NCBI GenBank assembly: GCA_964016885.1
Contig: OZ024741.1
Span: 108,500,001-108,564,000 of the forward strand
From: Eledone cirrhosa
Taxonomy: Eukaryota
Direction: 5' to 3'
Length of the DNA: 64,000 bases
The notes beneath the pieces are model-generated. The model did not search any database. It was not told the DNA's origin and was given only the letters and a program-made list of their open reading frames with translations. Shown here in pieces: positions 1 to 49,576 of the stretch. Each line of letters starts with the position of its first letter. Position 1 is the stretch's first letter. Made by a program: the position numbers and the translations under genes.

Positions 1-1236
1 GAAAATAGGGCCCTCCTTCTCTGTATTCAATTTTAGGATAGTAGCCCAAGAAGATAGGTTCAAGGTTCATTATGGCTCTGATAATAGTGACTCGGACTTT
101 AGCTAGTCGGAGGGTCTTTATCATCCAAAACTGGGGAACAGAATCGAATGCATGTATGGATGAATGGATGGATGGACGAATGGATGGATAGTTGGATGGG
201 TGGCTTTATGTATGAATATGCTTATGTATGTACTAACTGGCGGGGTTCGTTGTTGCCAGTGACTAAATCAGTTGCAATAGCAGTGAGTAGGGTGATAGGA
301 CGGGTACTCAGAATACCAGAAGCTTCCACCACTATAACGAAAAATTAGCGGAGAGTGGCCCGGACTACAGTAACTTGCCTTCTTCAGCTTGTCGGACAAC
401 GAAACCTGGGGCTGTAGTTGAATTCACCAGATTTCTGCTTGAGAGTGTATTGTTGCATGTCATGTACTAGATAAAATGTTTACATACACGGAATGAGATG
501 ACTATGCTGCCATCTAGCCTTTTACTGCCCTCTCTCACGAGCAGAAGTCGACAGCGTCCCAGCTTCGCTTATTCATATAGTTAAGAGAGGCTTGACAGCG
601 GAAGATCAATGAACTCATGTACCATGGATCCAAACCGGCGTTTGTGTTGCTCGCAAATCCAAAGGCCAAGCCTCCGGAAAAACACATATGGGGACAATCA
701 CTGGTGCTGGACAAGCAAGTTCGAAAGGCTGTCCAAAAGTTAGACACACTGGACTACTTTCGATTTTTGTTAGTATTAGAGTGATTGGATGTTGGCAGAA
801 TAGAAGCCAAGACAGCTCAACGTAGCATATGTGTATGTGGCCATATGTCGACACCATTGTTAAACTTGTTGATAAATAAAAGCTTTATTATTCGTGATAG
901 GGACGATATATCGTTGAAACTGTACATTCAATGATGTTGCATATGTGTGTATGTATATGTATATATATGCATATATATATATATATAAATATATATGTGT
1001 GTGTGTATATATATATATATATATATATATATATATACATATATATATATATATATATATATATATAAAGAATTAATATCTAGTAACATATATATACATA
1101 CAGATGCATATCAATGCTAGCAAATATATAGGTTTTGTCTTAGTAACATTGTGGTTCAATGCATGGGGTTGCAGAACAATAATATGAGAGACGTAAAGTA
1201 AGAAAATTATAAAATTAACTTAATTACTAAAATATC

Positions 1237-1318
1237 ACTTCCAACTAATTAGTTTCTGGAATGGAGTAAATATATTTTCCGAAGAAGATATGGAGAAACA
1301 TTCCGTCGTTAGGGAAGT
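1237..1318 (-). ncRNA. Type-I hammerhead ribozyme, core-mutated copy (CUAACGA)
   Basis: Minus strand: stem I ACUUCC/GGAAGU, core CUAACGA (G5A), stem II GGAAUG/CAUUCC, GAAA-CUAAUUAG-UU. Confidence 0.6.
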
Positions 1319-1759
1319 CTATTCTCATCCAAGTTTCCAGGCAAAGCGGGGACTCTGGAAACTTGTTAAAAAATAATTCAGTGGATAGGAAATAGCAAAG
1401 CGTGGACCCGAATTCCTAGCCATTGAGAAAATCACTGCCTCTGCGTCTGTGGCAAATTAAAAAAAAATCAATCACGTGACATCGAGGTCAATCAGTGGAA
1501 AGTGGTTTGCTAATAAGACAGCGGCCTGCCTACTACCATAGCAGCAGTCATGGCCAATATTGCTCGACAAATAATTTGGAGATAATTATAAAGAATTAAT
1601 ATCTAGTAACATATATATACATACAGATGCATATCAATGCTAGCAAATATATAGGTTTTGTCTTAGTAACATTGTGGTTCAATGCATGGGGTTGCAGAAC
1701 AATAATATGAGAGACGTAAAATAAGAAAATTATAAAATTAACTTACTTACTAAAATATC

Positions 1760-1841
1760 ACTTCCAACTAATTAGTTTCTGGAGTGGAGTAAATATATTT
1801 TCCGAAGAAGATACTGAGAAACATTCCGTCGTCAGGGAAGT
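1760..1841 (-). ncRNA. Minimal type-I hammerhead ribozyme
   Basis: Minus strand: ACUUCC-CUGACGA-stem II-GAAA-CUAAUUAG (palindromic loop III)-UU-GGAAGU; 6-bp perfect stem I. Confidence 0.8.
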
Positions 1842-2489
1842 CTATTCTCATCCAAGTTTCCAGGTAAAGCGGGGACTCTGGAAACTTGTTAAAAAATAAT
1901 TCAGTGGATAGGAAATAGCAAAGCGTGGACTGAATTCCTAGCCATTGAGAAAATCACTGCCTTCTCTCACGAGCAGAAGCCGATGTATGTATGTATGTAT
2001 TCCGTAAGGGTGGGGAGCACTCAATAGGTATTTAGCTACTTCATAGTAGAGATCGATGAACTTAGCAACAGAGACTATAGTTTAGTCCGCTTAAATCATT
2101 GAACCCTATGAAATTGATGCTACAGCATGGGCATACCCTAATAAAGATTAAGAAAAAATGTATGTTCGTATATATATTATTACTCACACACACACATATT
2201 TATATGTATATATATGTGTGTGTGTATATATATATATATATATATATATATATATATATATATACATATATACACACACATTTATATTTTCATATATATA
2301 TATCTATATATATCTATATATATATAGATATATATACAGTATATATATATATACGAGTATATATATATATATATATATATACTGTGTATATATATATATA
2401 TATATATATATATATATATATATATATATATATATATATATATATATACTGTATATATATATATATATATAAATGAAAATATAGAAATT

Positions 2490-46280: not shown

Positions 46281-48174
46281 ATACTTTTTGCCTTTTTATC
46301 CTATATATATATATATATATATATATATATATATATATAGTAAAATAAAAAAAACAAGGCGAGCAGTTACTCCTTCATTATGTATATATATATATATATA
46401 TATATATATATATATAGAGAGAGAGAGATATTGTTATGCACGGACGTTTTTATATATATATATGTGTGTGTGTATATATGTGTGTGTCTGTGTGTGTGTG
46501 TGTGAGTGTGTCCATAATGATTGTTCCTTCTTGTTCATCAAACCACTTGGATTAAGACTAAATGATATGAAAGGTCAAATGAAGTGAAGTTAGGTGGGAT
46601 CAGTTAAGATGGGTATCAGGTGAGATCAGGCGCGATCAGGTGATGTCAGATAAGGTCACGTGATATACTCCACAGATTTTAAAAAGATTAGTTGGGAACA
46701 TAGATATTTCTTAATTTATTATTTATGTAGTTTTGTTTGTGTTGGTTTCTTACGGCAGCTGGTTGGGAGCCGTTGGAAACATCACTTTACTGGTAGCGCC
46801 ATCTGTAACAGCTACTACTGTGCTGCTGCTAACACTACTACTACTACTACTACTAAAGGGATGACACAAGTTCATAAATACATACGTACGTACCTACATA
46901 AACACACACATAGATACATACATACATGCATACATGCATGCATACATACATTCTACTATTACTACTACTACCACTACTAATACTAATATTACTACATACA
47001 TGCATGTATGTATGTATCTGTGTGTCTGTATTTGTGTAGGGCCGTGCGTTTGTATTTATAAACTTGTTTGTGTCTTCTCTTTTACCCTTTAACTCGTTTC
47101 AGCCGACGGCTTGGGGTCACGCAGACCCCCCCACACACACACACACACTCCAATTTGCTATACTTAGTGTAGCTTATATTCCTTAGGTGGCCTTTGGTAT
47201 ATGAGGGAACTTGACATTGCCGCCTAGATTTATTTTTATTGCCTTGGTTTAGGCTCATCTAGGATCTAGGGCGATTAAAAAATAACAACATCCATATCTA
47301 TACTATGTATAACTCCTAGCTATTTTCAACAGCATATTAAAGAGCTGAAGGACATTGAAACACAATATATTTGCAGTATCTGCTCCTTAATATAGATGTT
47401 GAGAGAGGGACCTATGGTCCAGCGCAGTGACATCCTGTTCGGTTGTTCAACCCTGAATGTTAAAGTTGGTTGCTACCCCGTCTACAATCATCCATACATA
47501 TATGTCTATTCGCCAAGGAATAGCCTTATATTTTATTTAGCATCTAACAATAGCTCTTCTTTTTAACTGAAGTAATTGTCTTGGTGTAGCATCCTTTGGA
47601 AATCTCTGGGGGCGGTTCTGGTAAGTAAGAGAGATAAAGAGTAATGGATGAGATTTAAAGTATTTAATGTGAAATATTTTATATAAAGTTTCGGCTGTTA
47701 CACGTTTGTATTTTACTGATTGATTTCTGTAACCTTAAAGTCTAAAACCTAACTAATTAACTCATTAATTTTAATTCAGTCACACATCGATTTCAGATGA
47801 TCACGTTATAGTTAAGTTTAAAACTTTAATTTAATATTCCTGTCTGACAACCTTCATTTGTTAGTTCCGAATGAGCTCAGGCATGTCTACATGAATGAAA
47901 ATTTTGCTTAAAGACCATCTAGTGTCAGGTTTAAATTGCAACGCGTGACACACTGGAATGTTGTGTTTTACCTTGGCGAGTTAGTCAATATCTTATAAGT
48001 GAAATTTGATAGACGGTAAATTTACCCGTCGTGTATATATATATATATATATATATATATATATATATCGAGTGCTTTATATCAGTTATAAAAATATTTG
48101 CTTGTTGTATCCCAACAATTTAAATAGAACTTTTGCATATATATATATATATATATATATATATATATATATAT

Positions 48175-48867
48175 ATATTTATTAAAATAACAGATTAAAG
48201 TTTAAGCAAAGAATCGCTGCTTTCACCCTTAACGGGATCTTCTGAAACTAACAAAGTCAATCTGTAAACGCAGAGCTGGATATTTAAAAAAACGTTGCAA
48301 CCGGAGGAAGACAGGAAGACGATACTTTGGTTCGTGGAAACGTTCGCTGGCAAAGAACGGGAAAAAACGAATAATACGTCATTAATAGGAGCGGTGAAAA
48401 ACAATTACGCGCAAAGACAGAACCACGTTTAGGTATAAAAGAGGTCGTAGACTAATGTTCTCTTAGGTGGTGCATAGAGACGTTCTCTGGCAATGAACGA
48501 AAAAACGAAGATAATACGTCATATGTGGAGCGTGGAGAACAATGCACGCAAAGACAAAACCACGTAAATGGTATAGCAGAAGTGAAGTCGTAGACTAAAA
48601 TTCTAACTAGGAGACCAAATGAAGTCCGCTACAGAGTTAAGAACAAAGTAAATAAATACAATACAGAAGTAATAGAAATAAATAAATACATACACGCAAA
48701 CAAATACGTACATACACAAGCATACGCAAAACCTTACCATAGGTATACAACCACGCACATATAAATATGTGTGTGTGTGTGTATGCTTGTGTACTTTCAG
48801 AAGATCCCGTTAAGTGTGAAAGCAGCGATTCTTTGCTTAAACTTTAATCTGTTATTTTAATAAATAT
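48175..48867. repeat. Inverted repeat (~73-bp arms) with a degenerate hammerhead-like motif and a ~140-bp internal tandem duplication
   Basis: 48175-48247 versus 48795-48867; motif CAGAAGA-UCCC..GGGU-GAAA; the outer extension is related to 59612-59665. Confidence 0.8.
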
Positions 48868-49124
48868 TTGCTCTACGGTTCTTATATATTTGATATATAT
48901 TTATCCTTATCGAGCCCTCTTTGGATTTTAGTCTTCAATTTTATTATTATTACTATTAATATATATATATATATATATATATATATATATGTAGATAAAT
49001 CTACCAAGAGTTTACGGTAGTGTCCAATCCGTATGAAGAACTCAATGTAATCCGGATATCATGGAAAGAAGAGATGCAATGAAAAATCACTTTCGGTGAA
49101 AGATAAACGGAATACAGAGTCAAG

Positions 49125-49576
49125 ATAAAATATTTAAAAAATAATGAATAAAACAATGAAACAGTTCCTTATATTAAACAAAAAAAGTTCATTATTTAAC
49201 GATCGTTTCTAGGATATATATGTGTTAGAATTGGCATGCATATTCAACAGATCTATGTACAAAATTATACAAAATTATACAAACTATCAAAATTAAATAT
49301 ACATACCAACACATATATATGCCGTCTTCAGAAATAATAAAATATATTTATTAATATATTTCATTATTTCTGAAGACGGCATATATATGTGTTGGTATGT
49401 ATATTTAATTTTGATAGTTTGTATAATTTTGTATAATTTTGTACATAGATCTGTTGAATATGCATGCCAATTCTAACACATATATATCCTAGAAACGATC
49501 GTTAAATAATGAACTTTTTTTGTTTAATATAAGGAACTGTTTCATTGTTTTATTCATTATTTTTTTAATATTTTAT
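49125..49576. repeat. Near-perfect fold-back palindrome (~220-bp arms) with one hammerhead per arm
   Basis: Symmetry centre ~49350; hammerheads at 49188-49341 (-) and 49360-49513 (+). Confidence 0.93.
49360..49513 (+). ncRNA. Type-I hammerhead ribozyme with ~115-nt stem II
   Basis: UUCAUUAUUU-CUGAAGA-..AUAUAUAUGUGUU/AACACAUAUAUAU..-GAAA-CGAUCG-UU-AAAUAAUGAA; 10-bp perfect stem I, palindromic loop III. Confidence 0.85.

What the first reader, a model, noticed from the sequence alone, without database searches (positions are those of the whole stretch)
1064..49576. Dense set of Penelope-type minimal hammerhead ribozymes from several unrelated families
Seen: CUGANGA..stem II..GAAA-palindrome-UH motifs closed by stem I at 1760-1841(-), 4934-4998(-), 6807-6897(+), 28083-28121(+), 35631-35669(+), 35920-35986(-)/36089-36155(+) and 49188-49341(-)/49360-49513(+), plus decayed ones. 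Stem sequences differ between families while pairing is kept. Loop III is self-complementary (CUAAUUAG, CGCGCG, GUAC, CGAUCG; UAUGUA with wobble pairs). Established: such minimal type-I hammerheads mark Penelope-like pLTRs and metazoan retrozymes and cleave mainly as dimers. Inference: a diverse, largely non-autonomous ribozyme-bearing retroelement population uses (TA)n tracts in this genome; no intact PLE ORF is present in the window.
Basis: partly seen in the sequence, partly recalled or inferred. Interest (0 to 1): 0.8.

Follow-up and report, generated by a model that had tools for sequence, protein, structure and literature searches.

The report
Penelope retrotransposon ends carrying hammerhead ribozymes
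The motifs are hammerhead-ribozyme sequences at the ends of Penelope-like jumping genes scattered through this animal genome's TA repeats, a known kind of element; two twists stand out: a protein-free tandem repeat with Penelope-style insertion marks, so likely moved by Penelope enzymes, and an abundant family whose ribozyme core change is predicted to cripple cutting.

Summary
All nine motifs are present at the stated places; shuffles give 0.04-0.18 per window. They belong to six repeat families. Most traced families are not non-autonomous. D is the end repeat (pLTR) of a Neptune-type Penelope-like element (PLE) with intact 775-aa ORFs elsewhere. F and E are ends of Hydra-type PLEs; F has an intact 830-aa ORF. 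B and C were not traced. Only A is a non-coding 523-bp tandem retrozyme.

Every family shows two fixed 3' ends on (TA)n, and inverted arms pair one short end with one long end (40 of 42 scorable pairs). This is the PLE 'tail' signature. A shows it too, which is footprint evidence that PLE enzymes move retrozymes.

Relatives elsewhere keep U.

About 170,000 motifs are estimated genome-wide (95,000-255,000), so the window is only 2.5 times the average. Cleavage and expression are untested. The scan earlier noted a similar insertion pattern for a tRNA-bearing repeat in another genome. Verdict: a known kind of element with two useful variants.

The parts
1068..1962 (-). Family A: 1.7 units of a 523-bp non-coding tandem retrozyme; long 3' end on (TA)n at 1068
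1766..1835 (-). A hammerhead, intact core, helix III CUAAUUAG
1243..1312 (-). A hammerhead with A at core position 5 (broken core)
4892..5163 (.). Family B inverted insertion: minus arm with hammerhead 4942-4990 and short end; plus arm is tail only (5096-5163)
6788..7181 (+). Family C: hammerhead 6812-6890 (CGCGCG); tail split by a SINE-like repeat at about 6948-7087
24412..24674 (+). Decayed 3' UTR of family G (75-78% identity), no hammerhead left
28047..28240 (+). Family D pLTR (Neptune-type PLE), hammerhead 28088-28116, short end; 99.0% identical to the pLTR of an intact element
28406..28602 (.). Tail-only inverted end of a further family whose hammerhead (seen in L037, L100) has a U3-A8 core pair
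30701..30885 (-). Older D copy cut inside the core, long end
35613..35819 (+). D copy, hammerhead 35636-35664, long end
35872..36300 (.). Family E inverted insertion (Hydra-type PLE end): hammerheads 35928-35978(-) with short end and 36097-36147(+) with long end
48069..48136 (+). Tail-only fragment of family B
48180..48938 (.).
48991..49576 (.). Family F inverted insertion (Hydra-type PLE end): hammerheads 49198-49331(-) with long end and 49370-49503(+) with short end; 115-nt stem II

Best explanation
The motifs are type-I hammerhead sequences in the end repeats (pLTRs) of several Penelope-like retrotransposon families, left in TA microsatellites as short, often inverted, 5'-truncated copies, likely by target-primed reverse transcription, and predicted to cut RNA mainly as dimers. 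Shown here: family membership, the link to RT plus GIY-YIG ORFs for D, E, F and G, two fixed 3' ends, one-short-one-long inverted arms, and TA targeting. Inferred, by analogy with the anole PLE (PMC11167929): the RT-endonuclease nicks AT-rich DNA and starts copying at two fixed sites 25-200 nt downstream of the ribozyme. Two such cDNAs, one per target strand, are joined head to head, and early drop-off leaves only the ribozyme end. Any copy that spans the scissile site must derive from uncut or re-joined RNA, so cutting is probably a processing or control step on tandem transcripts, not a step of insertion. Family A has no ORF, keeps the ribozyme and the two ends, and is probably copied in trans as a tandem or circular retrozyme. 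Family G probably spread with a weak or dead ribozyme.
For: D: 775-aa RT-zinc finger-GIY-YIG ORFs end 382 nt upstream of the D hammerhead in L096 and L098; the two are 99.5% identical; Pfam gives GIY-YIG above cut-off and RVT_1 just below it. F: an 830-aa ORF lies between two F hammerheads 7.08 kb apart in L206. G: an ORF lies between two G motifs 3.26 kb apart in L240. E: in 19 of 19 loci a Hydra-type endonuclease end runs into the E 3' UTR, and 8 of 19 also show the E hammerhead. Two end classes occur in all 7 families, 36-137 nt apart. Of 67 inverted pairs, 40 are long+short, 2 short+short, 0 long+long and 25 unscored. With no palindrome required, 23 of 32 hits are fully self-complementary, against 0 of 5 hits in 20 shuffles of 600 kb. 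Stem I pairs 4 and 5, which the scan did not require, hold in 51 and 44 of 61 distinct variants, with 20 different palindromes. Helix III of A-F forms no monomer hairpin but a dimer duplex of -2.2 to -13.3 kcal/mol. Among 77 Hydra-like loci from metagenomes, 50 carry canonical hammerheads on the ORF strand; shuffles give 0.
Against: No cleavage or transcription was shown. The minimum-energy fold of several monomers (A, C, E, G) is not the hammerhead fold. Published PLE hammerheads cut weakly or need protein (PMC4209133, PMC11167929), and 8 of 9 Xenopus retrozyme dimers gave no cleavage (bioRxiv 10.64898/2026.07.22.740005). No ORF was found for B or C, and no partner for A. No intact ORF was seen for E or G. 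25 of 67 pairs could not be scored, and overlapping loci may count a few insertions twice. 5' ends of A copies do not pile up at the scissile site (2 of 42 at +7), so there is no genomic trace of cutting in vivo.
Confidence: 0.85

Rival explanations
1. One reading: mostly non-autonomous retrozymes or SINE-like ribozyme elements with no coding master.
For: A is non-coding and tandem: an array with 10 full units in L104, 99.2-99.8% alike over the six compared. B and C were not linked to an ORF. A second, 310-bp tandem hammerhead array lies in L015.
Against: D, E, F and G run into PLE ORFs in longer copies, and window copies of D and F are 99.0% and 98.6% identical to the pLTRs of intact elements.
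Confidence: 0.1
2. The folds are kept for a non-catalytic role, such as protein binding or marking the reverse-transcription start, and cutting is incidental in all families.
For: G keeps stems, GAAA and UH while position 4 is A in 63 of 63 copies. In 20 copies not picked by the motif, core columns vary 0-0.7% against 4.9% upstream (few subfamilies, weak). In PMC11167929 core mutants did not affect insertion in vitro.
Against: Canonical catalytic boxes persist across about 20 families here and in 63 motifs at 50 of 77 distant loci, with 3 compensatory U3-A8 swaps, which is what selection for catalysis predicts.
Confidence: 0.2
3. Family A spreads by DNA-level satellite amplification (unequal crossover), not by retrotransposition.
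For: Long, nearly homogeneous arrays exist (L104, L105).
Against: Copies are dispersed on many chromosomes. They have two fixed ends on (TA)n and inverted arms: 11 long+short, 1 short+short, 7 unscored of 19 pairs. Local expansion may still lengthen arrays afterwards.
Confidence: 0.07
4. Chance matches in AT-rich, low-complexity DNA.
For: The B and E stems are AT-rich and the core is short.
Against: 9 real against at most 2 in 200 shuffles; 34 against 0,0,0,1,0 in 600 kb; thousands of exact copies per family with reversed-pattern controls of 0-3.
Confidence: 0.01

Closest known systems
Minimal and palindromic-helix-III hammerheads in pLTRs of metazoan PLEs (Cervera & De la Pena 2014, PMC4209133)
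   Same: Type-I topology, palindromic helix III, an extra base after A9 in several families, many families per genome, mostly solo copies, opposite-strand pairs close together, U3-A8 covariant.
   Different: Load estimated at about 170,000 here against about 2,000-9,000 per genome reported there; stem II up to 115 nt; a family with A fixed at position 4.
Hydra-clade PLEs (Craig et al. 2021, PMC8557442; includes one cephalopod family, Hydra-1_Obim)
   Same: F and G proteins have RWR (RWK-like), DKT, CxCx5C, CxxC and CxH motifs, no CCHH, a C-terminal GIY-YIG, and (TA)n targets.
   Different: F is 7.1 kb with a 4.2-kb 3' UTR (described families are generally under 3 kb); tails are 89-137 nt (30-40 bp is the figure given for PLE tails); all 26 Hydra hammerhead rows in File S2 have CUGA, whereas G has CAGA.
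Neptune/Nematis-type PLEs
   Same: The D protein has GLKF, DKG, YLDD, a Cx4CxxC linker and a CCHH-type GIY-YIG; its tail is 36 nt.
   Different: Clade not fixed by a tree; Neptune versus Nematis rests on motif reading and partly on recall.
Non-LTR retrozymes of animals (Cervera & de la Pena 2020, PMC7229834; Li et al. 2026, bioRxiv 10.64898/2026.07.22.740005)
   Same: A is a non-coding tandem repeat with one type-I hammerhead per unit, low GC and a stable predicted circle (z = -4.2); it coexists with PLEs.
   Different: A shows the PLE two-end tail and inverted-arm footprint directly. In the parts read, those papers argue from co-occurrence and pLTR similarity. The unit of 520-570 bp is longer than the 170-400 nt invertebrate circles. 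Circular RNA was not shown here.
Poseidon element PAc of Anolis (Frangieh et al. 2024, PMC11167929)
   Same: Two internal reverse-transcription start sites downstream of the hammerhead define the tail; AT-rich targets; both strands are cut.
   Different: Here the tails of F and G lie in the 5' UTR upstream of the first ATG, not inside the ORF, and are longer.

Membership tests
Type-I hammerhead ribozyme | CUGANGA and GAAA boxes plus UH, closed by stems I-III | tested here: met
   9 of 9 listed motifs; C has only 3 contiguous pairs in stem I
Type-I hammerhead ribozyme | Compensatory variation of the stems | tested here: met
   Unrequired stem I pairs 4-5 hold in 51 and 44 of 61 variants; 23 of 32 helix III palindromic when not required. 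These are counts of variants, not of independent events.
Type-I hammerhead ribozyme | Match to an Rfam hammerhead model | tested here: not met
   None (150 of 202 rows shown) or 108-110; stretches of A, B and F were covered only
Type-I hammerhead ribozyme | Site-specific self-cleavage | not testable with these tools
   Needs an assay
Type-I hammerhead ribozyme (family G) | U at core position 4 | tested here: not met
   A in 63 of 63 aligned copies and in 95 of 100 listed matches. Four of the 5 U cases were inspected and are inversion-junction palindromes; the fifth has the same 23-nt offset. Filed as a hammerhead-like variant.
Penelope-like elements (EN+) | Single RT + GIY-YIG ORF linked to the pLTR | tested here: met
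   D and F intact; E and G broken copies only. Not met for A; not found for B or C.
Penelope-like elements (EN+) | Tandem pLTRs, inverted 5'-truncated arm, tail at one end | tested here: met
   All 7 families; few pairs for B and C (2 each)
Hydra clade | RWK-like, DKT, CxCx5C, CxxC, CxH; no CCHH; (TA)n target | tested here: met
   Read from the F and G translations against section 11 of PMC8557442; E endonuclease region
Hydra clade | Phylogenetic placement with reference Hydra proteins | not tested
   No reference proteins were on hand as sequences
Neptune clade (family D) | CX2-5CxxC linker and CCHH endonuclease, C-terminal | tested here: inconclusive
   Motifs present, but Nematis shares them; no tree
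Non-LTR retrozyme (family A) | Non-coding tandem units, each with a type-I hammerhead | tested here: met
   12,089 half-motif matches
Non-LTR retrozyme (family A) | Expressed as circular RNA | not testable with these tools
   Needs RNA data

The most novel reading that the evidence does not exclude
This genome holds one of the largest hammerhead loads yet described, and two natural experiments. (1) A non-coding retrozyme (A) carries the exact two-start-site, inverted-arm footprint of Penelope enzymes, which is direct genomic evidence of who mobilises animal retrozymes. (2) A roughly 24,000-copy Hydra PLE (G) fixed U4-to-A in the uridine turn while keeping the rest of the fold. It is either a natural hammerhead that still cuts with a core that mutational scans call crippled (rescued by its monomeric helix III or by protein), or proof that PLEs thrive on a non-cutting ribozyme fold.
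Probability: 0.35. Interest if true: 0.65.

Novelty: new variant of a known kind. Interest (0 to 1): 0.45.

Why it matters
The finding as given repeats a pattern published in 2014. Its value lies in two questions that the papers call open: what PLE hammerheads are for ('still unclear', PMC8557442), and which enzyme moves animal retrozymes (PLEs are 'a strong candidate', PMC7229834). This genome offers young intact PLE proteins (D, F) with mapped start sites, a retrozyme with the same footprint (A), and a natural core variant at high copy number (G), so both questions can be tested directly. It also shows that Rfam models miss a very abundant ribozyme class in this genome.

Tried and rejected
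Rfam scans: only microsatellite-driven miRNA matches and other sub-threshold hits.

The repeat finder was swamped by TA tracts. The DNA search with F returned nothing, not even the window, so a pattern search was used instead. A Pfam accession recalled for a PLE domain is not in the library. Three ORF translations had no exact record.

Sequencing runs: no RNA holder was listed, which says nothing about expression. Contigs of three runs of unknown kind, from one sample that may be the source of the assembly, showed no other letter at 10% or more at G position 4, and a U/A split at the F scissile base. Their depth could not map element ends.

Partner for A: no similarity beyond low-complexity matches to the ends of D, E, F, G or a third PLE type. 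PLE fragments lay near 5 of 30 A loci; the two sites inspected were separated from A by TA tracts. The apparent long shared flanks of B (L106/L107) are TA sequence.

Other single-base core variants were not found as families in 600 kb; U3-A8 hits there are mostly one minisatellite. A pile-up of 5' ends at the scissile site was not seen. End calling by alignment over-extended G's short end, so it was redone with flanking motifs.

Literature searches that found no report of a natural U4A hammerhead or of cephalopod hammerhead surveys: (open-access library only; listings judged by title and abstract start).
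Full report
OBSERVATION. Shuffles gave means of 0-0.18 and a maximum of 2 in 200 shuffles. They fall into six families: A (1766-1835, minus), B (4942-4990, minus), C (6812-6890), D (28088-28116, 35636-35664), E (35928-35978 minus, 36097-36147) and F (49198-49331 minus, 49370-49503). Rfam did not report them. 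The window lies in a 3.0-Gb animal genome. An octopod host is my guess from recalled repeat patterns; no call tested it.

GENOME-WIDE LOAD. Sixty evenly spaced 10-kb stretches from 20 contigs held 34 motifs; five shuffles gave 0,0,0,1,0. This extrapolates to about 170,000 (bootstrap 95,000-255,000), and the window is about 2.5 times the mean (P about 0.04). Exact pattern counts over the whole genome were: B/E-type half motif 46,004, G 24,403, A half motif 12,089, F half motif 6,845, and D whole core 5,901. Reversed-pattern controls were 0-3. For scale, PMC7229834 gives 126,247 motifs for the axolotl and more than 6,000 for a coral; PMC4209133 gives about 2,000-9,000 per genome.

ARE THEY HAMMERHEADS? 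Features that the scan did not demand are met. With no palindrome required, 23 of 32 hits were fully self-complementary; the other 9 included four CCACUGG and two UGCACA near-palindromes. Shuffles gave 5 hits in 12 Mb, none palindromic. Stem I reached 5 or more pairs in 29 of 34 hits. Across 61 distinct variants, pairs 4 and 5 held in 51 and 44, and 20 different palindromes occur. Helix III of A-F cannot fold as a monomer hairpin but pairs with a second copy, the dimer design described in PMC4209133. Against this, whole-motif minimum-energy folds of A, C, E and G are alternative structures, and no cleavage was measured.

WHAT CARRIES THEM. Longer copies were fetched for each family.
- D: L096 and L098 hold a 775-aa ORF (GIY-YIG above the Pfam cut-off, RVT_1 at E 3e-6 just below it) ending 382 nt before the D hammerhead. 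L096 has an inverted 5' arm. The ORFs are 99.5% identical, and the window copy is 99.0% identical to the pLTR. Motifs are Neptune/Nematis-like.
- F: an 830-aa ORF lies between two F hammerheads 7.08 kb apart, with a 4.2-kb 3' UTR. It has the Hydra motifs listed in PMC8557442 section 11.
- E: 19 of 19 loci found with a Hydra-type endonuclease end continue into the E 3' UTR; 8 show the E hammerhead; no intact ORF was seen.
- B and C: shared upstream sequence ended within a few hundred bases and no ORF was reached.
- A: a 523-bp unit (period 520-570 in subfamilies 69-98% alike) with no similarity to the PLE proteins tested, in arrays of 10 or more full units. No run-on into an ORF was seen in the 54 A loci fetched, some of which overlap.

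INSERTION FOOTPRINT. In all seven families the 3' ends fall in two classes, mostly on (TA)n, separated by 36 (D), 83 (B), 89 (G), 94 (E), 96 (C), 115 (A) and 137 nt (F). Of 67 inverted pairs, 40 had one long and one short arm, 2 had two short arms, none had two long arms, and 25 could not be scored (tandem run-on, no TA called, decayed). For A alone the figures were 11, 1, 0 and 7. A TA tract lies within 250 nt downstream of 32 of 34 sampled motifs, against 20% of random positions. PMC11167929 showed for an anole PLE that such a tail is the stretch between two internal reverse-transcription starts, that both target strands are cut, and that hammerhead mutants still insert in vitro. I infer the same here. 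Many copies also stop just upstream of the ribozyme (F: 10 of 32 within 6-9 nt of C3; D: 12 of 27 at -44 to -40). This may mark a transcript start or a fold-back site; the samples are biased by how loci were picked.

48180-48938 is an inverted insertion whose motif reads CAGAAGA instead of CUGANGA, with stems I and II, GAAA, a five-pair monomer-type helix III and UU. It is the pLTR of a 3.26-kb Hydra-type PLE. None of 11 fetched stretches held an intact ORF, and most copies are 85-97% identical in protein, so G is older than D and F. Position 4 is A in 63 of 63 aligned copies and in 20 of 20 copies not picked by the motif. The 5 of 100 listed matches with U are inversion-junction palindromes (four inspected). 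As an outgroup, 77 Hydra-like metagenome loci gave 63 canonical motifs in 50 loci on the ORF strand (2 antisense), 3 U3-A8 swaps and no U4A. All 26 Hydra rows of File S2 in PMC8557442 have CUGA. U4 is therefore very probably ancestral. PMC9901934 reports low activity for single and double mutants of the CUGA turn other than the C3-G8 swap. PMC3088659 cites a natural U4C viroid variant that is weak in vitro yet viable. In the commonest G variant a slipped helix III (-3.6) beats the active register (-1.9 kcal/mol); in the GCAA variant the order reverses. Best guess: G cuts poorly or not at all (about 70%).

COMPARISON AND NOVELTY. Hammerheads in PLE pLTRs, (TA)n targeting, inverted arms, tails, Hydra elements in a cephalopod and retrozymes as PLE derivatives are all in print. 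What my searches did not turn up is a natural U4A family or the tail footprint on a retrozyme; the library is open-access only. An octopus repeat annotation (PMC13282606) lists recently active Penelope families and has no occurrence of 'ribozyme' or 'hammerhead'.

WHAT I SAW OF EACH PAPER. PMC4209133, parts 1-2 of 4. PMC7229834, parts 2-4 of 6. PMC11167929, parts 1-2 of 4. bioRxiv 10.64898/2026.07.22.740005, parts 1-3 of 5, no supplements. PMC8557442, passages, section 11, a supplement search and supplement part 2 of 59. PMC3088659, PMC9901934 and PMC13282606, passages only. Hammerhead numbering and the names Neptune and Tx1 are partly recalled.

VERDICT. These are known PLE hammerheads, mostly truncated ends of coding elements, with two variants worth a bench test. 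Interest 0.45.

Noticed in passing
window 9829-21493 (-): Two tandem copies (99.7% alike) of a LINE with a 669-aa ORF1 and an endonuclease-RT-zinc finger ORF2 (1150 and 1132 aa), flanked by (TAC)n tracts; a relative 73% alike lies at about 62050-64000. The L1/Tx1-type label is recalled.
   Followed up: partly
window 2476-2697 and 13 other places up to 52607: A SINE-like repeat of about 200 bp with 14 copies; one sits exactly at the short end of the family C copy, and the same happens in L042, L053 and L054.
   Followed up: no
window 39143-39531 and 40172-40560: A perfect 389-bp inverted repeat around a TA/CA microsatellite.
   Followed up: no
window 28406-28602; L037, L100: Tail of a family whose hammerhead has the U3-A8 core pair, a CCGG palindrome and a 4-bp stem II.
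   Followed up: partly
L015:5-965: A second tandem hammerhead array with a 310-bp period and a CGCG palindrome, a further retrozyme candidate.
   Followed up: no
L009, L014, L115, L119, L178, L105 and others: Canonical-core families with odd or longer helix III (CCACUGG; 14-17-nt hairpins), so monomer-type and dimer-type designs coexist in this genome.
   Followed up: no
L103:5391-8989, L107:1655-3334: A third PLE protein type (YVDD reverse transcriptase), young and abundant, not present in the window; its hammerhead was not assigned.
   Followed up: partly
L098:972-3350: A Hydra-type relative 53% identical to G; the scan found no canonical hammerhead behind this copy.
   Followed up: partly
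window 8735-8792, 6244-6267(-), 26470-26490: Partial hammerhead-like boxes without a closed stem I, probably decayed copies of other families.
   Followed up: no
L301-L377: Hydra-like PLEs are common in marine metagenome contigs; 50 of 77 carry canonical hammerheads, often one at each end.
   Followed up: yes
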